Source: a virus
Taxonomy: Duplodnaviria; Caudoviricetes
DNA: 48,226 nucleotides
Virus record (IMG/VR): IMGVR_UViG_3300038393_000863
Location: 1 to 48,226 of that record
Strand: one strand, 5' to 3'
Part shown: piece after piece, positions 1-48,226 of the stretch
How positions within the stretch are numbered: position 1 is the first letter of the stretch
Layout of the letters: each line of letters begins with the position of its first letter
Program-made: the position numbers and the translations under genes
The notes under the pieces: model-generated
Database searches by the model: none
Told to the model about the DNA's origin: nothing
What the model saw: only the letters and a program-made list of their open reading frames with translations

Positions 1-130
1 TACGCGCCGCTCAGGGACGCGCCGCTCAGGTCCGCGCCGCTCAGGTCCGCGCCGCTCAGGTACGCGCCGCTCAGGTACGCGTCCCTCAGGTACGCGTCCC
101 TCAGGTACGCGCCCCTCAGGTACGCGCCGC
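1..130. repeat. 15-bp tandem repeat (TCAGGT(A/C)CGCG(C/T)C(G/C)C) encoding pentapeptide repeats
   Basis: Directly visible tandem units; the same unit occurs at 47985-48226. Confidence 0.95.
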
Positions 131-245
131 TGCCAACCGCGGCTTCCACCGCGCGTTGCACCTGAAGGTGAAGCGGCGTGGTGTCCGCGATGACGGCCGT
201 GAAAGGCACGGCTGCGCCCCAGCGGGACTTGATTTGGATTTCCAT
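1..245 (-). CDS. Pentapeptide-repeat protein, N-terminal part (runs off the window start; probably continues at 48226)
   Basis: Manual translation from ATG at 245: [75 protein letters not shown]..., i.e. A(D/Y)L(S/R)(G/D) pentapeptides; not in the ORF track because it is truncated. Confidence 0.85.
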   Translation of the reverse strand, partial: MEIQIKSRWGAAVPFTAVIADTTPLHLQVQRAVEAAVGSGAYLRGAYLRDAYLRDAYLSGAYLSGADLSGADLSGASLSGA

Positions 246-298
246 GCGTTTCGGCCCTCCCGAGCCATCATCAGGGACGCGGGATCAGCGTCCGACGC
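246..298 (-). ncRNA. Hammerhead ribozyme, type III (HHR1)
   Basis: Minus strand: GCGUC^GGACGC UGAUCCC GCGUCC CUGAUGA U GGCUC GGGA GGGCC GAAAC GC, then AUG; complete core, three stems, GUC site (cut 294/293). Confidence 0.92.
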
Positions 299-319
299 GG
301 CCCAGCCCCAGTTAAGAGG

Positions 320-333
320 CTGGGCTAATGCAG
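320..333. promoter_or_regulatory. CTG-N8-CAG box (CTGGGCTAATGCAG), candidate operator
   Basis: One of at least 10 related, mostly intergenic 14-mers. Confidence 0.6.
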
Positions 334-340
334 CGATTGA

Positions 341-907
341 CTAGGCGGCCAGCGGGGCAACCGCTTTGGCCACCTTGCGGGCCTTGGCGATGGCGTAGCG
401 GTCAGACGCCTCGACACGGCCGAACTCGGCGACCAGTGCCTTAGCGAGCGGGGCGAACCGCCAGACGTTCGCCTCAGTGAACGCCCGCTGATGGTCCGGG
501 AACTTGCCGTGGGTCCCGAACGCCTCCGCTTGGCCGATGACCTCGCAGAGGACCAGCGCAGCCATGGCGGCCACGTCGCGGCCGTCACCATAGAGGCGGA
601 CCAGATGGGCGACTTGGACGAAGGCCGCTTCGCGCTCGCCGTCGCGGGTGAACGGCAGGGCGTACCGATAGTGCGCCCAATCGTGCCACGCGCGGAACGC
701 CCAGTTGACTTCCGGGGAGCCGAAAATGGTGTCGTCGGAAGCACCGGCCCAGACAACCGCGGGGCCACTGTCCCAAGCCGCCTTGAGGTCAGCGAGGGTT
801 GACGGCGCGGTGTCCCGCGGGGTGAACCCCAGCGGAAACAGACGTCCCGCCAGGGTGAGAACGGCAGCGTCTAGCTGCGCGTTCACGGGTTCACGGAAGG
901 GGCTCAC
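341..907 (-). CDS. Early protein with FRAWHDxxH motif (possible zincin-like metal-binding protein); paralogue of 45193-45813
   Basis: NWAFRAWHDWAHYRYALPFTRDGE aligns with QFRAWHDWVHYRFGAAFTMPGE of the other copy. Confidence 0.75.
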   Translation of the reverse strand: MSPFREPVNAQLDAAVLTLAGRLFPLGFTPRDTAPSTLADLKAAWDSGPAVVWAGASDDTIFGSPEVNWAFRAWHDWAHYRYALPFTRDGEREAAFVQVAHLVRLYGDGRDVAAMAALVLCEVIGQAEAFGTHGKFPDHQRAFTEANVWRFAPLAKALVAEFGRVEASDRYAIAKARKVAKAVAPLAA

Positions 908-1074
908 AGCCGGTGCTCGCGGGTGAACGAGCGGGGTTCCGCGGAGGGGTCCCGCTTGACCTCGTAACGGCCCTTGGGGTCGACGGATCGGGCTTCCCGG
1001 AGCACGCGCTTAGCGCCCGCCAGGGTCAGGTAACCCGACACGACCTCACGGCCGCCCGAATACAGGGCGTACAT
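904..1074 (-). CDS. Small early hypothetical protein (56 aa, MYALYSGGREVVSGY...)
   Basis: Manual translation; purine-rich leader after HHR2; stop overlaps the next start (GTGA). Confidence 0.65.
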   Translation of the reverse strand: MYALYSGGREVVSGYLTLAGAKRVLREARSVDPKGRYEVKRDPSAEPRSFTREHRL

Positions 1075-1092
1075 GGTCGGTTCTCTCTGTTG

Positions 1093-1145
1093 GGGTTTCG
1101 GGCGTGCTCGCCCATCATCAGCGCGCCAGCGTCAGGCGCGGACCC
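1093..1145 (-). ncRNA. Hammerhead ribozyme, type III (HHR2)
   Basis: GGGUC^CGCGCC UGACGCU GGCGCG CUGAUGA U GGGCG AGCA CGCCC GAAAC CC; all stems Watson-Crick (cut 1141/1140). Confidence 0.93.
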
Positions 1146-1168
1146 GAGCCCAGCAGCGGGTTAGGCCA

Positions 1169-1182
1169 CTGGGCTGTCACAG
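1169..1182. promoter_or_regulatory. CTG-N8-CAG box (CTGGGCTGTCACAG)
   Basis: Intergenic, about 24 nt upstream of HHR2 on the minus strand. Confidence 0.55.
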
Positions 1183-1185
1183 CGG

Positions 1186-1359
1186 TTAGCGGCTACGATG
1201 GGGTTCCACCTCTTGAACCCAGACGTTGCCAGCGTAGCCATAGGCGAGGAGCTTCCGGCGATCCTTCTCCGCCTTCGCCTCAGCAGCTTCATATTTGCGG
1301 TGCAGAGATAGAACGCCACTTTGGGCCGGCGTAGTAGCCCACTTCACGACTGCGAACAT
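1186..1359 (-). CDS. Small early hypothetical protein (57 aa, MFAVVKWATTPAQSG...)
   Basis: Manual translation; GGAGG upstream; fills the gap between neighbours. Confidence 0.65.
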   Translation of the reverse strand: MFAVVKWATTPAQSGVLSLHRKYEAAEAKAEKDRRKLLAYGYAGNVWVQEVEPHRSR

Positions 1360-1362
1360 GGC

Positions 1363-1560
1363 CTATCCCTCCACCCCGCAAGCCCGCAGGAAACGCCCGC
1401 GGTCAAACAGCGGGTTCGTACTGCGGAGTTCGGCGGCGAGTGTCATCGCCACCTCATCGCAGGCGCGGCCCCACACCATCGCCTCAGACGGGCGGGTGAA
1501 GATTTGCGAACGTGAGGCGCGCACAGCCTCAGCGATCAACACGTAGTCTTTGCGGGTCAT
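1363..1560 (-). CDS. Small early phage protein (MTRKDY...NPLFDRGRFLRACG)
   Basis: ORF track; GAAGGGAAG upstream of ATG 1560; NPxFDxxRF-type C-terminus common in small phage early proteins. Confidence 0.75.
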   Translation of the reverse strand: MTRKDYVLIAEAVRASRSQIFTRPSEAMVWGRACDEVAMTLAAELRSTNPLFDRGRFLRACGVEG

Positions 1561-1585
1561 GGCCCGGCTTCCCTTCATGGTTGAT

Positions 1586-1637
1586 GCGTTTCGCCCTGCC
1601 GGGTCATCCTCAGGGGTGCGGCATCAGCACCCGACGC
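1586..1637 (-). ncRNA. Hammerhead ribozyme, type III (HHR3)
   Basis: GCGUC^GGGUGC UGAUGCC GCACCC CUGAGGA U G(A)CCC GGCA GGGC GAAAC GC; one bulged A in stem II (cut 1633/1632). Confidence 0.88.
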
Positions 1638-1656
1638 TAGACCTTGGCGGACACCG

Positions 1657-1670
1657 CTGGGTTAAACCAG
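1657..1670. promoter_or_regulatory. CTG-N8-CAG box (CTGGGTTAAACCAG, within the palindrome CGCTGG..CCAGCG)
   Basis: Intergenic, 20 nt upstream of HHR3. Confidence 0.6.
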
Positions 1671-1673
1671 CGA

Positions 1674-1910
1674 TTATGCAATCATGCTCTTGACGGTGAT
1701 CCCGTCGATATGGACGGAGCCGCCCCGCCGCACATCCCATTCGGTCACGCGGTCAAAGCGGAGCTGATCATCCGCCCATGCATCCATGGCCGCGTCGCCA
1801 CGTTCCTTGGCCTGCCGCCAACCGGCCATGCTGAAAGCGTTCTTAGCACCCTGCCAAGTGGCGTAGCCCTTGACCTGTCCCTTGTGATTGATGACGGCGA
1901 AGCGGTGCAT
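1674..1910 (-). CDS. First early gene, hypothetical (78 aa)
   Basis: ORF track; AGGAGG in loop II of HHR4 upstream. Confidence 0.75.
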   Translation of the reverse strand: MHRFAVINHKGQVKGYATWQGAKNAFSMAGWRQAKERGDAAMDAWADDQLRFDRVTEWDVRRGGSVHIDGITVKSMIA

Positions 1911-1911
1911 A

Positions 1912-1964
1912 GCGTTTCGGCCCTCCTAGGCCATCGTCAGGGGATCAGGATTAGACCCCGACGC
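1912..1964 (-). ncRNA. Hammerhead ribozyme, type III (HHR4)
   Basis: GCGUC^GGGGUC UAAUCCU GAUCCC CUGACGA U GGCCU AGGA GGGCC GAAAC GC U AUG (cut 1960/1959). Confidence 0.92.
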
Positions 1965-2177
1965 TTGCTTCCGCTGGAAACCAGACCGTGGGCCTAACCC
2001 ACGTTGCGCCTCAGGAGAGAGGGGAGCCCCGGCCTTGCGGCTTGTCTCCCTTTGTCCCGAGGATCAGGCCCGTAACCGGGCACGCCTACCAGACGGTTTG
2101 AACTTGCGTTCTGCCGGGGCCGGACAACCGGCCTAGGGGCTGAGCCGGAGCGGCGCTTGTCCGCTGCGACAGCCCAG

Positions 2178-2206
2178 TAACTAGGCTAGCCCAGCGATCA
2201 TGTCAA
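2178..2206 (-). promoter_or_regulatory. Host sigma70-type early promoter, overlapped by two CTG-N8-CAG boxes (2164-2177, 2181-2194)
   Basis: Minus strand TTGACA-17 nt-TAGTTA directly upstream of the early cluster. Confidence 0.7.
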
Positions 2207-2749
2207 CACCCCTCAACCTGCGGCGGGTAATCACGTGTCTGTGATCGCCTACTGGGCGAACCCATTAACTGGGCAAGCCCCATAGATGGCTCAAGAGGCC
2301 TCTTTGAGTGGTTCAGGTAGGGTAGTAGCCGGGCACCCTCCAAAGGCCCTGTAGCGCCCGGAAATCGGCCTTTAAACCGGTATCCGCTGCAAACCCTAGG
2401 GTTCAGCCGACCAAACCCCGCCGTTGCCCCTGCCGATAACCCTCCGGCTATCAACCCGGCCCCCTCCGATAGCCCCGAGGCTATCAGCCTGATTGCCCCG
2501 CAGGGTGTCCCGCAGGATGCACCGGCAGGTGAACCCGCAGGGGTTGGGTTCCTATGCATGTCCCCATGACGTGTCTAGGAAGCGGCCCTTTCCTATGCAT
2601 GTCAGGGCCAGGACGAAAAAAGCAGGGGACAATGAGCGCATGGGCCGAACCATCAATGAGCCCGGACACGCCTTGCGGGACCACTAGTGGTGCAGGATGG
2701 CACGCCTAGAGGGAATGCACCTTAGGAAAATCAATTAGTTGGCGATCAG

Positions 2750-3232
2750 TATGGAGTGGCCTTAGGCGTAGACTGTGCCAAGGCCCATCGCTTTCGGCCT
2801 GCCCCCGGCCTGTTGAGGCCCGGACCCCCACGGGGGGAACTGCGCGGGCCGCTGAACGCGCATCAGGCTGCGCTATTTCGACCCCAAAACCATCAGCCCC
2901 TTACCGAGCGGGAAGGTTTGTCAGAAGGAGTCCACATATTTCTGACAATCTGACCGAGCGGGATGACGACCCCTGCCGGTTACACCTGAGGGTTCTCCTT
3001 CGGGTTCCCCTGAGGGTTCCCCTATGGGCCTCGGCCTCCCGGCCTTCGGCAAGACAGGGTTGTAGGAGAAGGTCTCTTACTACTCTAGGCTGACACCTTA
3101 AGGTATATACCAGGGAACCTCCTCCGGTTCACCAGCCAGGGAAACCAGCCAGTGAACCAGTAGGTGGGTAGGTAGGGTAGTAGGTAGGTCTACACACCCT
3201 GAGGTGAACCTTGAGGATCACCTTAAGATGTA
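2750..3232. other. Putative terminal-repeat/concatemer-junction region
   Basis: Non-coding, between the large terminase stop and the early promoter as in T7; short CCT(G/T)(A/G)AG-type repeats at ~2985-3228, inverted repeat TTGTCAGAA..TTCTGACAA at 2918-2949, duplicated CCGAGCGGGA. Confidence 0.5.
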
Positions 3233-3235
3233 CCC

Positions 3236-4978
3236 CTAGGCATCACCCCAGGATTTCCGGCGGGTGACCCTTCCAGTGGGCCTGCCTACAGCCCGACCTC
3301 GGCCCTTCTGGGCCAGCCGGTCACCGAAGATGGTGCCCTTGAAGAACTCCCGCTCGAAGGCCTCATCCTGCTTCCGCTGCCATGACTCCTCCGCCTTGTT
3401 GGCGTCGGCGTTCATGTACGGAGCCCAGTACTCCAGAGCTTGGGCCAGCACGTCGATGAGGTCGTCGTGCTTTAGAGCACCCTTCTGCTCTGTCAGGTGG
3501 GTGAGCTGGTAGAGGCCCCGGTGGATGTTCGACGGGTTTGCCAGGTCGGCCCTGGCGGCTGTCGTGTCGAGGACCAACCGGTGTTGCTGGAGGGCAGGGC
3601 GGACCAGCGCCATCATGCGCTGCTCTTTCATCCCCGTGACCTTGTAGCCTTCGACCGTGACCGGGTAGACCCGAGCCACGACAGGCTCCAGCAGGGCGGT
3701 GAACATGCCGTCCCCGAAGTTGTCTTCCACGCCGATGTGGTTGACCTCCTCGTCCCTGGCGATCTCCGCCAAGGCCCTGAGGGTCTCCGGGCTGAACCCT
3801 TCCTGGAAGCCGCCCCAGCGCCGGATGTAGACCCAGCCGTTGAGGAACTTCGTGACCACGTAAGCGGTCCGGTCCTTGCCCCGACCCGAGGGGTCGATGT
3901 GCAGAGCGGAGCCGGTGAAGGGGACGAACTCGTTGGAGGCGAACAGCGGCCGATACATGCGGTCGCCGTCGAACCCGACGTTCGCCAGGTCCTTGTGGAC
4001 CTTCTCGGGGTCCTGACCCCAGACGAGCCGGATGGGAGCCAGCCGCTTGTCGACGTCCGTGACGATGAGGTCGCGGGTCTTTAGCGGATAGCGTTCGGCG
4101 TCGGTGAGGGTGGTGTCGAGCTGGTACTGGAGGAGGAAGCCGGCGCTGCCGCGCTTCAGCTCCTTGCCCTGGAGCACGAGCTCGTTGAACCGGATCGGGT
4201 TGGTAGGTGCTCCGCCCACCGTGGACCCCACCGGTTTCATCAGGTCGGGGTTCTCCTCGATCTCCTTCAGGAGGATCGGGGCGAGGGTCCCGTCGTAGTG
4301 GTGGAGCTTGTCTCGGAGGGGATAGCGGCCGGGCCAGACCCGGATGTCGTAATCCTGCTCCCGGAGCCCCTTGTAGATGCTCTCGAAGCTCTGCGGGGTC
4401 CCGAGATAGATGATCTCGGAGTCCGGCTTGGCGATGTCGCCGTACTCACCGATGAGGTGCCGCAGCTTGTCCCGCTGGGTTTCCGTCTGGGAGTTCTTGG
4501 GGACCTCGACGTCGTCCGAAATGAGGATGTCGGAGCGCGAGCCGGTGAGCTGGCCGGTGATCCCCACGGTCTTTACGGAGGGGGACTTGTCGGGGACCGC
4601 GGGACCAACGTCGAACGCCATGGTGGACGTCCGCTGGTTCCCCTTGGAACGGAGCTCCTTCCAGAACTCCTCGCCGGCCGGGTGATCGATGATCTGCTTG
4701 ATGAGGGTCGCGTTCTCGACCGCGAGGTCCTCGTTCGCAGAGACGATCAGGATTTTGAGCTGGGGGTTCTTCCACAGACGCCACACCACGTAGGCGCACG
4801 TCAGGAAGCTCTTGCCGACTCCTCGATACGCCTGGATGAAGCGACTGGGCGGTCCCTCGGCCAGGTAGCGACCGATGTCGAGCTGGAGCCGGTCAGGCGG
4901 CGGCAGCTCTAGGACGAACTTCCAGACGTACCAGAGGAAGCGAAGGAAGTCGGCCTTCAGGATGTCCGCGGAGGACAT
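3236..4978 (-). CDS. Terminase large subunit (T7 gp19-like)
   Basis: FIQAYRGVGKSFLT Walker A, GITGQLTGSRSDILISDDVE, LGTPQ, IDPSGRGKD nuclease motif, HDDLIDVLA. Confidence 0.97.
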   Translation of the reverse strand: MSSADILKADFLRFLWYVWKFVLELPPPDRLQLDIGRYLAEGPPSRFIQAYRGVGKSFLTCAYVVWRLWKNPQLKILIVSANEDLAVENATLIKQIIDHPAGEEFWKELRSKGNQRTSTMAFDVGPAVPDKSPSVKTVGITGQLTGSRSDILISDDVEVPKNSQTETQRDKLRHLIGEYGDIAKPDSEIIYLGTPQSFESIYKGLREQDYDIRVWPGRYPLRDKLHHYDGTLAPILLKEIEENPDLMKPVGSTVGGAPTNPIRFNELVLQGKELKRGSAGFLLQYQLDTTLTDAERYPLKTRDLIVTDVDKRLAPIRLVWGQDPEKVHKDLANVGFDGDRMYRPLFASNEFVPFTGSALHIDPSGRGKDRTAYVVTKFLNGWVYIRRWGGFQEGFSPETLRALAEIARDEEVNHIGVEDNFGDGMFTALLEPVVARVYPVTVEGYKVTGMKEQRMMALVRPALQQHRLVLDTTAARADLANPSNIHRGLYQLTHLTEQKGALKHDDLIDVLAQALEYWAPYMNADANKAEESWQRKQDEAFEREFFKGTIFGDRLAQKGRGRAVGRPTGRVTRRKSWGDA

Positions 4979-45004: not shown

Positions 45005-45196
45005 CTAGAGCTTGTTCAGCTCGTCACAGGTCTCGTGCCAGGGCTCGGCCTGCTCAGCGATCCGCTCCTCCGACGCGAGGGAGAACTCGATGTCGTGGAG
45101 CTGAGCCTCAGCGGCCTTCCGCAGGGCGGAGACGATGAAGCCCGAGCCATGCCGCTTGGCGATGCGGTTGACGCATTCGAGGCAGTCAGGGCTCAT
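45005..45196 (-). CDS. Small early hypothetical protein
   Basis: ORF track; GGAGG SD. Confidence 0.65.
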   Translation of the reverse strand: MSPDCLECVNRIAKRHGSGFIVSALRKAAEAQLHDIEFSLASEERIAEQAEPWHETCDELNKL

Positions 45197-45813
45197 GGCG
45201 GATCGCCTCCTCGTAATACGAAGGGCAGGGCGATCTCGGCGGGCAACGCCTGCCAGGGGACACGCGGGCCGAACTCCTTGCGGTAGTCGTAGGCCTGCTT
45301 GGCGAACTCGATGGCGTCCACGTCGGTGCGCCCTTGGTTCGCGACGATGTTCTTGGCGTAGTCACGCCAGGAGGCGACGTTCGCGGCGCAGTAGGCGTGG
45401 CCGTCCGGCACCGGCTTGCCCGTCTCCATGCCGGCTTCGAGCTGGCCGATGACGTTGCAGAACAACAGGGCGATCATCTCGACCACATCGTCCCCGCGGC
45501 CATAGAGGCGCATGAGCTGGCCCGCCTGGATGTGGCAGGAGGTGTGCTCGCCGGGCATCGTGAAGGCCGCGCCGAAGCGGTAGTGGACCCAGTCGTGCCA
45601 GGCACGGAACTGGAGCCAGGTCTCGGTATCGGCGAAGCACGTATGCGAGTAGTCGCCGGACCAGATGGCCATGCGGCCGTAGCAGTCCATGCGCTCGCAG
45701 AGCTCATCCATGGTGTTCGGGGCGGAGCGGCAGACATCGAACCCGAGGGGGAAGATGTGGCTCGCGATGTGGCACGACGCCTCGTTGAAGGTGGGGTTGA
45801 TGGGCTGGACCAT
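45193..45813 (-). CDS. Early protein with FRAWHDxxH motif; paralogue of 341-907
   Basis: IFPLGF...FRAWHDWVHYRFG.AFT..GE...RLYGRGDDV..M.ALL.C.VIGQ shared with the other copy. Confidence 0.8.
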   Translation of the reverse strand: MVQPINPTFNEASCHIASHIFPLGFDVCRSAPNTMDELCERMDCYGRMAIWSGDYSHTCFADTETWLQFRAWHDWVHYRFGAAFTMPGEHTSCHIQAGQLMRLYGRGDDVVEMIALLFCNVIGQLEAGMETGKPVPDGHAYCAANVASWRDYAKNIVANQGRTDVDAIEFAKQAYDYRKEFGPRVPWQALPAEIALPFVLRGGDPP

Positions 45814-45826
45814 TTCTCGATGACCT

Positions 45827-45840
45827 CTGGGTTTATGCAG
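45827..45840. promoter_or_regulatory. CTG-N8-CAG box (CTGGGTTTATGCAG) overlapping the kinase stop
   Basis: Matches the repeated motif. Confidence 0.55.
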
Positions 45841-46501
45841 CGATCAGGACCGGCAACTGCCGCTCCTGGCCGCGCACGTTCTTGCTGATCTTGGTCGAGA
45901 GCTCACGCGAGGAGCTTCCCGAGGTGATGTAGCCGGCGGGGTCGGTGATGACCACACGACCATCAGGAGCGACCATCACGTTCTCATCGTGGAGGTCGGA
46001 GTCGGCCTCCAGCAGGATGAAATCCACGATGTCTCGGAGCAACCGGTACAGCTCAGGCCGCGTGTGCTCCAGGTGCCTCACGGTCGGCGTGTACTTCCGG
46101 TACTTCAGGTTCCTGAGTGCCGAGACCATCTCGGAGTATTCGATACGCTGCGGATTGTTCGACTCCCTACTGATGGTGTGGTCCATCCGCTCGATCCGCG
46201 CGACGTAGAAGTCACCGAACCACTCCAGAGACTTCACTTGGAGCGCGTAGGGATTGCCGACATGGCGGGTCATCACGAGCGCGGCGAATGCCGGCCAAGC
46301 GTCGAGTTTGCCCCCGCCGACCTTGAGGACGTCGGGCTGGCCATCCTTCTCATAGACGTTGCCGAACGTGCCTTCGCCGATGAGCTCCCAGCCATTCTGC
46401 TCAAGGCGTATCTCGAAGGCACCCTTGGACTCGCCCGGACGGGGCACATCAGAGGCACCTTGGTGGACAGGCCACCAGGGAAGCAGGCCAATGCCGAACA
46501 T
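45833..46501 (-). CDS. Ser/Thr protein kinase-like (T7 gp0.7-type)
   Basis: LIGEGTFGNVY, VLKV, DLHDENVM, VITDP; likely start ATG 46501 after GGAGAG. Confidence 0.88.
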   Translation of the reverse strand: MFGIGLLPWWPVHQGASDVPRPGESKGAFEIRLEQNGWELIGEGTFGNVYEKDGQPDVLKVGGGKLDAWPAFAALVMTRHVGNPYALQVKSLEWFGDFYVARIERMDHTISRESNNPQRIEYSEMVSALRNLKYRKYTPTVRHLEHTRPELYRLLRDIVDFILLEADSDLHDENVMVAPDGRVVITDPAGYITSGSSSRELSTKISKNVRGQERQLPVLIAA

Positions 46502-46538: not shown

Positions 46539-46609
46539 GCCACGGCCATCGGCCCGGCGGTTAGGCCGGGCCTAGGTTTCGCTGGGGTCTCACCAGCTCG
46601 TCAGGTGGC
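46539..46609 (-). ncRNA. Hammerhead ribozyme fold, type I, with non-canonical GCC site (HHR6)
   Basis: GCCAC CUGACGA GCUGG UGAGACC CCAGC GAAAC C UA GGCCCGGC CUAACC GCCGGGCC GAU GGCC^GUGGC. Confidence 0.7.
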
Positions 46610-47619: not shown

Positions 47620-47684
47620 GCCGCGACCATCGGGGACCCATGAAGGTCCCCTAGGTTTCACCCTAGACGGGCTCATCAGGCGGC
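47620..47684 (-). ncRNA. Hammerhead ribozyme, type I (HHR5)
   Basis: GCCGC CUGAUGA GCCC GUCUA GGGU GAAAC C UA GGGGACC UUCAUG GGUCCCC GAU GGUC^GCGGC (cut 47625/47624); G-U at the base of stem II. Confidence 0.8.
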
Positions 47685-47739: not shown

Positions 47740-48226
47740 TCACCACAGCTCTTGCTTGGCCTGCCCCTCAAGGAACCGGATGATCCTCAGCGTCTCGGCA
47801 GCCTTGGGGCTATCCGGGTACTCGGCCTTGACGTGCGCCTTGAACTCAGCCGCCGTGAACGTACGGCAACCGGCGCGGATCACCGGCTTGGAGTCCGTCA
47901 TGTCGAACATGATGAACTCGTAGCCATCCGAGCGATAAGCACGGCCGATGACCCGCGAGATGACCAGCTTGGGCTTCTCTTTAGTGCCCCTCAGGTACGC
48001 GTCCCTCAGGTCCGCGCCGCTCAGGTCCGCGCCGCTCAGGTCCGCGCCGCTCAGGTCCGCGCCGCTCAGGTACGCGCCCCTCAGGTACGCGCCCCTCAGG
48101 TACGCGCCGCTCAGGTCCGCGCCCCTCAGGTCCGCGCCCCTCAGGTACGCGCCGCTCAGGTCCGCGCCGCTCAGGTACGCGCCGCTCAGGTCCGCGCCCC
48201 TCAGGTCCGCGCCCCTCAGGTACGCG
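47740..48226 (-). CDS. Pentapeptide-repeat protein, C-terminal part
   Basis: About 16 A(D/Y)L(S/R)G units, then [24 protein letters not shown]...[22 protein letters not shown]...QELW*. Confidence 0.85.
47985..48226. repeat. 15-bp tandem repeat encoding pentapeptides
   Basis: Directly visible; same unit as 1-130. Confidence 0.95.

What the first reader, a model, noticed from the sequence alone, without database searches (positions are those of the whole stretch)
255..1953. Covarying loop I-loop II pairing across the four type III hammerheads
Seen, loop I / loop II: UGAUCCC/GGGA, UGACGCU/AGCA, UGAUGCC/GGCA, UAAUCCU/AGGA. In every copy the last three loop I bases are Watson-Crick complementary to the first three loop II bases (CCC-GGG, GCU-AGC, GCC-GGC, CCU-AGG), with an invariant first U in loop I and last A in loop II. 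Known: loop I-loop II contacts give natural hammerheads fast cleavage at physiological Mg2+. Four different compensating triplets in one genome argue for selection on activity, and all four copies also share a U inserted after A9, which defines a compact ~53-nt subfamily.
Basis: partly seen in the sequence, partly recalled or inferred. Interest (0 to 1): 0.8.

Follow-up and report, generated by a model that had tools for sequence, protein, structure and literature searches.

The report
Phage hammerheads with paired, covarying loops
Four small RNA motifs between a phage's early genes have the shape of self-cutting hammerhead RNAs, with two loops whose letters stay complementary across dozens of related phage copies; they likely cut the early message into gene-sized pieces, and in two copies one loop likely doubles as the next gene's ribosome landing site.

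Summary
Observation confirmed. Four type III hammerheads lie on the minus strand of a T7-like temperate phage related to Caulobacter phage S2B. The loop I/loop II triplets pair as described. Four copies alone are weak evidence: 1 in 24 by permutation, and only two of three positions vary. Relatives settle it: 68 of 95 unique relatives keep three Watson-Crick pairs (shuffled mean 24, maximum 36), in eight triplet types.

The extra U after A9 is common but does not define the family (U 53, none 6, A 5, G 4 of 68).

Loop-loop helices, the U·A contact, the extra base and hammerheads flanking phage genes are all published. Not found in my searches: this three-pair phage subfamily (no Rfam match) and a sub-variant whose loop II reads GGAGG with loop I carrying CC. 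In that sub-variant the start codon follows the core by 1-3 bases (17 of 26, against 0 of 16), as in copies 1 and 4. This scan noted a loop II ribosome site before, on other DNA. Cleavage and rates are untested. New variant of a known kind.

The parts
1912..1964 (-). HH4, type III hammerhead, first in the early transcript; predicted cut between 1960 and 1959; loop I 1953-1947, extra U 1933, loop II 1927-1924; AGGAGG at 1927-1922, AUG at 1910
   Evidence: 64.4 bits against model R1 built without the window's copies
1584..1637 (-). HH3, type III hammerhead with a bulged A in stem II; predicted cut between 1633 and 1632; the next gene has its own purine-rich site before the AUG at 1560
   Evidence: 56.7 bits
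1093..1145 (-). HH2, type III hammerhead of the commonest family type (GCU/AGC); predicted cut between 1141 and 1140; next AUG at 1074
   Evidence: 71.2 bits
246..298 (-). HH1, type III hammerhead; predicted cut between 294 and 293; GGGAGG at 261-256, AUG at 245
   Evidence: 60.6 bits
1674..1910 (-). 78-aa early gene of unknown function that starts 3 bases after HH4's GAAAC
   Evidence: 5 homologues at 63-84% identity begin at or within a few residues of the same Met
1363..1560 (-). Small early gene after HH3 (65 aa from the AUG at 1560), no family match
1186..1359 (-). Small early gene (57 aa) ending just before the hairpin and HH2, no family match
904..1074 (-). Small early gene after HH2 (56 aa), no family match
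341..907 (-). 188-aa phage gene of unknown function (phrog_7806), ending before the hairpin and HH1
1..245 (-). 5' part of a pentapeptide-repeat gene that starts 2 bases after HH1's GAAAC and continues across the contig join to 47740
   Evidence: PF00805; phrog_31265 matched from protein residue 1 to profile position 1
301..326 (-). 10-bp hairpin with a UUAACU loop just 5' of HH1; predicted 3'-end hairpin of the upstream cleavage product
1149..1177 (-). 11-bp hairpin with a CUAACCC loop just 5' of HH2
1654..1675 (-). 8-bp hairpin with a UUUAAC loop 5' of HH3
2178..2206 (-). Possible host-polymerase promoter: TTGACA at 2206-2201, then CTAGTT after 16 bases; read by eye, not called by the promoter scan
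   Evidence: similar TTGAC...CTA text upstream in jiawei and S2B; 0 sites called
47620..47684 (-). HH5, type I hammerhead with an internal loop in stem III; predicted cut between 47625 and 47624; same early transcript
46539..46609 (-). HH6, type I hammerhead shape with GCC in place of GUC, likely impaired; lies before a gp0.7-like kinase gene

Best explanation
The four motifs have the complete sequence and stems of type III hammerhead ribozymes, with loops that keep three complementary letters across relatives; those letters likely pair to hold stems I and II together, and the ribozymes are predicted to cut the phage's early transcript between genes. Shown: anatomy, position between genes, covariation in relatives. 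Inferred steps: (1) the last three bases of the 7-nt loop I pair with the three bases before the last A of loop II, while loop I U1 makes the known reverse-Hoogsteen contact with that A, giving the docked, fast fold; (2) cuts at 1960, 1633, 1141 and 294 give pieces of 327, 492 and 847 nt with one or two genes each, starting with a 5'-OH and the stem I hairpin and, for HH1-3, leaving the upstream piece with a 3' hairpin, a role like RNase III processing in T7; (3) in HH1 and HH4 loop II plus stem II also serves as the Shine-Dalgarno site of the next gene, with loop I carrying the compensating CC.
For: Core and three stems intact in 4 of 4 copies. A model from 60 relatives finds the four at 57-71 bits and nothing else in the window. 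68 of 95 unique relatives have three WC pairs; 20,000 shuffles give mean 24, maximum 36; slid registers give 0 and 3; 8 of 33 distinct triplet types are WC against 1.06 expected. Pair counts on 60 sequences: outer pairs GC 50, CG 5, AU 2, UA 1 and UA 41, CG 8, GC 2, UG 2. Among disjoint nearest-neighbour pairs that differ, both sides change and stay paired in 9 of 17 and 7 of 9. The middle pair changes to U-A in 3 relatives with a 6-nt loop II. All four copies are intergenic and followed by a gene. Start codon within 3 bases of GAAAC: 11 of 12 motifs with GGAG across loop II against 1 of 87 without; 17 of 26 against 0 of 16 in a scan that fixed neither start nor loop I (the sets overlap). The annotated gene starts in jiawei (6634) and S2B (6486) fall at this place. 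Clustered prophage hammerheads cleaved polycistronic RNA in vitro and in E. coli in PMC3088659.
Against: No cleavage, rate or transcript was observed. 27 of 95 relatives lack the full three pairs. The middle pair shows no compensatory change in the 60-sequence alignment (58 CG, 2 unpaired). Among GGAG-type relatives only 2 of 10 keep all three pairs in this register. Nearest-neighbour pairs include breaks: 6 of 17, 2 of 2 and 2 of 9. Shuffle controls do not remove relatedness. In HH4, and in HH1 at one boundary, an alternative pairing of GUC or CGUC with the core scores as well as or better than the hammerhead fold. 9 of 26 GGA-loop motifs have no ATG/GTG start within 3 bases. Rfam models do not recognise the motifs.
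Confidence: 0.8

Rival explanations
1. The ribozymes are real, but the loops dock by non-canonical contacts (U1·A reverse Hoogsteen plus an extrahelical pyrimidine, as modelled for viroid and satellite hammerheads); at most one or two of the three apparent pairs form.
For: PMC2632901 models a 7-nt loop 1 and an RNnA loop 2 this way and does not propose a WC triplet. Loop I position 6 is a pyrimidine in 90 of 95 relatives, which fits that motif without a WC partner. Three pairs plus a U·A contact from a 4-nt loop is sterically tight (inference).
Against: Two-sided changes at both outer positions with several pair types, and C-G to U-A at the middle position in 3 relatives. Non-canonical contacts would not predict WC-preserving changes at three positions.
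Confidence: 0.1
2. In HH1 and HH4 the loop letters are driven mainly by the Shine-Dalgarno role, and the ribozyme acts as a translation gate: loop I (CCU or CCC) masks the site in the docked fold, and the ribosome can load only after cleavage lets stem III fall apart.
For: GGAGG with start codon next to the core in 17 of 26 against 0 of 16; CC in the last four bases of loop I in 25 of 26 against 3 of 16. Predicted duplex with the 16S tail is -10.5 and -10.4 kcal/mol in HH1 and HH4, against -3.3 and -4.0 for the separate sites after HH2 and HH3.
Against: At the secondary-structure level, opening the initiation window costs the same before and after the cut: 11.7 vs 11.7 kcal/mol for HH1 and 10.2 vs 10.9 for HH4 (pseudoknot not modelled). 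The GGA/CC type also occurs with a separate downstream site, so CC may simply be the ribozyme's compensation.
Confidence: 0.25
3. The motifs are small mobile or vestigial units, and the pieces between them are ligated into circles or have no role in gene expression.
For: The stem III 5' strand GCGU is shared by HH1, HH3 and HH4, so the piece from HH4 to HH3 could rebuild a hammerhead from its own ends (inference). Gene neighbours differ between phages. HH6 looks decayed.
Against: Stems differ between copies (62-77% identity) yet keep pairing. Motifs sit directly before a ribosome site and start codon in most relatives: 67 of 87 non-GGAG motifs have their own site and ORF downstream. PMC3088659 looked for spliced or circular products of such clusters and found none.
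Confidence: 0.07

Closest known systems
Clustered hammerheads flanking genes in phages and prophages (Perreault et al. 2011, PMC3088659)
   Same: Several hammerheads of mixed type between short phage genes; proposed and shown to cut polycistronic RNA; base-paired stem I-stem II contacts reported for about 40% of hammerheads of all three types.
   Different: Their pseudoknot count used at least 4 bp (Figure S4 text); here it is a 3-bp loop-loop helix combined with the U·A contact. No ribosome site inside loop II in the passages I read. The type III part of their Dataset S1 was cut in the stored file, so I could not check whether LKA1-like copies are listed.
Chrysanthemum chlorotic mottle viroid hammerheads (Dufour et al. 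2009, PMC2632901; review PMC3705267)
   Same: Type III-like layout with a 7-nt loop 1 that starts with U, a loop 2 that ends in A, and an extra base between A9 and G10.1 in the plus strand. The loops printed in the paper (UGACGUC with AUGACA; UGAAGUG with CGCACA) show the same three-letter complementarity, and phage relatives L056 and L062 have almost the same loops as the plus strand.
   Different: The authors modelled a reverse-Hoogsteen pair and an extrahelical U, not a Watson-Crick triplet. The extra base is A there and mostly U here. RNA replicon rather than DNA phage.
sTRSV type III hammerhead (Chi et al. 2008, PMC2553840)
   Same: Terminal loop I (7 nt) docks on a 4-nt loop II; conserved U·A Hoogsteen pair between the first U and the last A.
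   Different: GNRA-type loop II and a U·A·U triple; its loops (UGUGCUU, GUGA, as printed in PMC2632901) do not give three WC pairs in this register.
RNase III processing of T7 transcripts (PMC6938266, passage)
   Same: A T7-like phage whose polycistronic RNA is cut at fixed sites; this phage also has a gp0.7-like kinase gene in the region.
   Different: Cut by the RNA itself, leaving 5'-OH and 2',3'-cyclic phosphate ends, not by a host enzyme. Functional analogy only.
Engineered ribozyme insulators and ribozyme switches that free a ribosome site (RiboJ type; details recalled, only a citation seen)
   Same: A type III hammerhead placed directly before a ribosome site removes upstream sequence.
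   Different: Natural; in HH1 and HH4 the ribosome site is inside loop II and stem II.

Membership tests
Type III hammerhead ribozyme | Core CUGANGA, GAAA and UH at a three-way junction | tested here: met
   4 of 4 copies, with GUC cleavage triplet and one extra U after A9
Type III hammerhead ribozyme | Stems I and II closed by loops, stem III open, with covariation | tested here: met
   stem I 100% paired with 6 of 6 pairs changing on both sides, stem II 97% (relatives were filtered for stems, so the percentages are partly by construction)
Type III hammerhead ribozyme | Self-cleavage 3' of C17 | not testable with these tools
   needs an in vitro assay
Rfam hammerhead families (covariance models) | Score at or above a family's gathering threshold | tested here: not met
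   0 matches in the whole window; 0 at E up to 1 in 1-3300. This shows the models miss this subfamily, not that it is no hammerhead.
UNmYN / RNnA loop-loop motif (PMC2632901) | 5' U and penultimate pyrimidine in loop 1; 5' purine and 3' A in loop 2 | tested here: met
   4 of 4 copies; U1 in 42 of 42 with the position left free; last base of loop II A in 92 of 96 by stem parse (partly fixed by the search patterns)
UNmYN / RNnA loop-loop motif (PMC2632901) | Reverse-Hoogsteen U·A pair and extrahelical pyrimidine in the 3D fold | not testable with these tools
   needs a structure or double mutants
Pseudoknot-stabilised hammerheads (PMC3088659) | At least 4 predicted base pairs between the stem I and stem II regions | tested here: inconclusive
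   3 covarying pairs; a fourth U4-A4 is possible in 3 of 4 copies and 51 of 96 relatives, but position 4 is otherwise free
   U 53, none 6, A 5, G 4 among 68 relatives with the full triplet (some scans fixed U, so its share is inflated; in the insert-free pattern 36 of 55 had U)
Autographivirales (T7-like) temperate phage near Caulobacter phage S2B | Single-subunit RNA polymerase, T7-type terminase, integrase | tested here: met
   RNA polymerase 60.5% to S2B and 60.9% to jiawei, next best under 39%; terminase and integrase families; host itself not shown

The most novel reading that the evidence does not exclude
A natural cleave-then-translate switch. One C-to-G change in loop II turns the family's AGCAGG into the ribosome site AGGAGG, loop I compensates to become an anti-Shine-Dalgarno, and the docked catalytic fold and the ribosome compete for the same letters, so the first gene of the phage is translated only after its ribozyme has cut. 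The same three-pair register may also be the unrecognised basis of loop docking in well-studied viroid hammerheads.
Probability: 0.25. Interest if true: 0.75.

Novelty: new variant of a known kind. Interest (0 to 1): 0.45.

Why it matters
The purpose of phage hammerheads is a stated open question (PMC6765202, passage). This subfamily gives a small, natural, covarying set that predicts exact rescue pairs. It occurs in cultured phages (Pseudomonas phage LKA1, Caulobacter phage S2B), so both the docking model and the processing role can be tested in laboratory strains. The ribosome-site variant ties one ribozyme letter to translation of the next gene, which makes the link between cleavage and expression measurable. 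The family is missed by Rfam, and compact 50-nt ribozymes with interchangeable loop pairs could serve as insulator parts.

Tried and rejected
Rfam search: no match at gathering or at E up to 1. Sequencing runs: no RNA holder listed; not used as evidence. Contigs of runs X2-X5 showed no variant letters, so no strain-level covariation could be read. The promoter scan called no site in 1-3300. Folding z-scores of the isolated motifs were weak. A search for loci of the gene after HH4 gave one weak locus, not followed. blastn of the leader against the held loci printed no hit. Look-ups of this scan's earlier findings by place and by sequence found nothing. De la Peña and García-Robles 2010, which reports bacterial type III hammerheads (cited in PMC6155905), could not be read: the id I tried is not held. 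Exact-string searches of the PMC3088659 supplements found nothing, but the dataset is a gapped alignment and was cut before its type III part, so this is no evidence of absence. Rejected: that the extra U defines the family; that the four triplets arose by compensation inside this genome; that cleavage opens the ribosome site at the secondary-structure level. No tree was built: 43 columns are too few, so nearest-neighbour pairs were used. R-scape was not available.
Full report
Context. The window is a whole 48,226-base contig, broken inside a pentapeptide-repeat gene that runs across its two ends. Its RNA polymerase is 60.5% identical to that of Caulobacter phage S2B and 60.9% to the record named Mycobacterium phage jiawei; the next best are under 39%. 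It has a T7-type terminase, an integrase and a gp0.7-like kinase. The finding lies at the start of the early region, on the minus strand. The host is probably a Caulobacter relative (inference); two Caulobacter genome contigs hold similar tandem motifs.

The observation. Each reads GUC, 6-bp stem I with a 7-nt loop, CUGANGA, an extra U, stem II with a 4-nt loop, GAAAC. Contigs from another study's DNA run cover the four sites without a differing letter. Rfam gives no match. Taken alone the four copies are modest evidence: the middle C-G pair is the same in all, the two outer pairs take two states each, and 1 of 24 permutations of the loops matches.

Relatives. I scanned IMG/VR, metagenome and genome collections with patterns that did not ask for loop complementarity. 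In the pooled parse, 300 pattern matches gave 149 with stem I of at least 5 of 6 pairs and stem II of at least 4 pairs. The other 151 were dropped as lacking stems. The 149 collapse to 100 unique motifs: 4 from the window and 96 others. One of the 96 had no anchor A and was dropped. Of 95, 68 have three Watson-Crick pairs between the last three bases of loop I and the three bases before the last A of loop II; 20,000 shuffles give a mean of 24 and a maximum of 36; sliding the register by one gives 0 and 3. The types are GCU/AGC 43, GCC/GGC 14, GCG/CGC 3, GUC/GAC 3, ACU/AGU 2, and CCC/GGG, CCU/AGG and ACG/CGU once each. Collapsed to 33 distinct type combinations, 8 are complementary against 1.06 expected. 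On a gap-free alignment of the 60 unique relatives of the 49-base class, 93.9% of loop cells pair and 18 change on both sides, 0 of 500 shuffles reach this, and the best slid control pairs 51.7%. There the middle pair never changes on both sides; its change to U-A appears only in three relatives with a 6-nt loop II. As a rough control for relatedness, disjoint nearest-neighbour pairs that differ at an outer position change on both sides and stay paired in 9 of 17 and 7 of 9 cases; 6 and 2 are breaks, 2 are wobbles, and both differences at the middle position are breaks. A covariance model from the 60 relatives, which exclude the window, finds the four copies at 57-71 bits, plus copies in jiawei, S2B and Pseudomonas phage HHBS51_1 (the LKA1 copy was in the training set). 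The metagenome scan read 3 of 64 parts and 27 of its 117 matches passed the stem filter, so the family is larger than sampled.

U1, the last A and the extra U. With both loop ends left free, U1 was present in 42 of 42 stem-bearing motifs. The A was at the expected place in 36; the other 6 have a 4-bp stem II and a 6-nt loop that also ends in A. This is the U·A reverse-Hoogsteen contact described for sTRSV, Schistosoma and viroid hammerheads (PMC2553840, passages; PMC2632901, passages and parts 3-4 of 6). The extra base after A9 is U in 36, absent in 10, A in 5 and G in 4 of 55 motifs when the pattern leaves it free. It is therefore common but not defining. An extra base at this place is known from a viroid hammerhead, where U gave the fastest trans-cleavage of the isolated ribozyme (review PMC3705267, passage).

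In HH1 and HH4 the start codon lies 2 and 3 bases after GAAAC, and the only strong Shine-Dalgarno text is GGGAGG or AGGAGG across loop II and stem II, 10-11 bases upstream. The starts look real. Five homologues of the protein after HH4 begin at or near the same Met, and the pentapeptide protein matches a phage family from position 1. The annotated starts in jiawei and S2B fall at the same place. Across the pooled set, 11 of 12 motifs with GGAG in loop II have an ATG or GTG within 3 bases that opens a frame, against 1 of 87 others; 67 of those 87 have their own site and ORF further on. A scan that fixed only the core and stem II gave 50 matches, 43 unique. One was not type III and was dropped; 17 of 26 GGA loops and 0 of 16 GCA loops have such a start, and CC lies in the last four bases of loop I in 25 of 26 against 3 of 16 (this set overlaps the first). 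The downstream proteins differ from one another by eye. Against a strict link: 9 of 26 GGA loops have no adjacent ATG/GTG, and only 2 of 10 GGAG-type relatives keep all three pairs in this register, many showing CC/GG shifted by one base.

How it likely works. Shown: anatomy, covariation, position. Inferred: the three pairs and the U·A contact dock stems I and II and give fast cleavage at low Mg2+, as for other natural hammerheads (PMC6155905, passages). Cuts at 1960, 1633, 1141 and 294 would give RNAs of 327, 492 and 847 nt with one, two and two genes. Each would start with a 5'-OH and the stem I hairpin. Hairpins with UAAC loops lie just upstream of HH1, HH2 and HH3 and would cap the 3' ends. 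The 50 bases upstream are more structured than a control stretch in 36 against 12 of 95 motifs (window copies included; the control is often coding). That such ends stabilise RNA is recalled knowledge, not tested. The role parallels RNase III processing of T7 RNA (PMC6938266, passage). Two type I motifs later in the same region extend the series; the last has GCC for GUC, seen in 2 of 80 members of its family, and is probably impaired. Whether cleavage gates translation in HH1 and HH4 is open: the computed cost of opening the initiation window does not fall after the cut (11.7 to 11.7 and 10.2 to 10.9 kcal/mol), though that model ignores the loop-loop pairs and the docked core.

What is known. 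PMC3088659 (parts 2-3 of 8, passages, Figures S1 and S4 as text) reports clustered hammerheads flanking prophage genes, their activity on polycistronic RNA, and base-paired stem I-II contacts in about 40% of hammerheads, counted from 4 bp. PMC10085705 (passages) states that the contact can be non-Watson-Crick or a helix. PMC6765202 (passages) calls the purpose of such ribozymes unresolved. PMC13725137 (passages) concerns eukaryotic RNA viruses. The loops printed for both CChMVd hammerheads show the same three-letter complementarity, which the authors did not model as pairs in the parts I read. Their single-mutant rates fit either reading (my inference). Eight literature searches showed, in their listings, no paper on this three-pair phage subfamily or on a ribosome site inside loop II. 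The library lacks most subscription papers, one key paper was not held, and the type III part of the 2011 dataset was not visible, so prior listing of these motifs is quite possible. This scan's earlier notes report a ribosome site in loop II (e1-9759968) or in the core of type II motifs on other genomes. They are unchecked and not counted as support; I had reached this reading before the look-up.

Verdict. The covariation is real and better supported than the four copies alone could show. Each ingredient is known; the combination in a widespread phage subfamily, and its ribosome-site variant, is a new variant of a known kind. Interest 0.45.

Noticed in passing
window 47620-47684 and 46539-46609, minus strand: Two type I hammerhead motifs share GAAACCUAGG-hairpin-CCGAUGG, with a UA/GAU internal loop in stem III. 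The same stem III occurs in 80 unique viral motifs, of both type I and type II layout (layout read by eye); 78 have GUC and 2 GCC. The second window copy has GCC.
   Followed up: partly
window 2161-2178 and 1168-1185: An 18-base complementary pair (one G·U; -39 kcal/mol as RNA) between the presumed 5' end of the early transcript and the stretch before HH2's hairpin; 0 of 60 shuffles reached 18. A second, weaker one links 1982-2000 with 1158-1176.
   Followed up: partly
window 314, 1163, 1664, 46563, 19121 (minus strand): All five hairpins of 7 or more pairs with UAAC in the loop are on the coding strand; three lie just before HH1-3 and one is stem III of HH6.
   Followed up: partly
window 1960-2178, minus strand: A highly structured, apparently non-coding leader of about 220 bases would be released whole by the cut at HH4.
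   Followed up: no
window 45833-46501, minus strand: A kinase gene of the T7 gp0.7 family (phrog_15752, E 4.5e-17), annotated as a regulator of RNase III and RNase E, follows HH6.
   Followed up: no
window 341-907 and 45193-45813: Two distant paralogues of phrog_7806 in the same early region.
   Followed up: no
L002 (OR464703.1): The record named Mycobacterium phage jiawei is as close to this phage as Caulobacter phage S2B and has the same early layout, so its recorded host may be wrong.
   Followed up: no
L001:4012-4088 and 4553-4675: S2B has two type I hammerhead motifs in its early region besides the type III one; one has an extra U after A9, and its loop II can pair with GUCUC in the 3' tail.
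   Followed up: no
window 1-135 and 47980-48226: The contig is joined inside 15-base pentapeptide repeats, so the repeat number and the exact join are uncertain.
   Followed up: no
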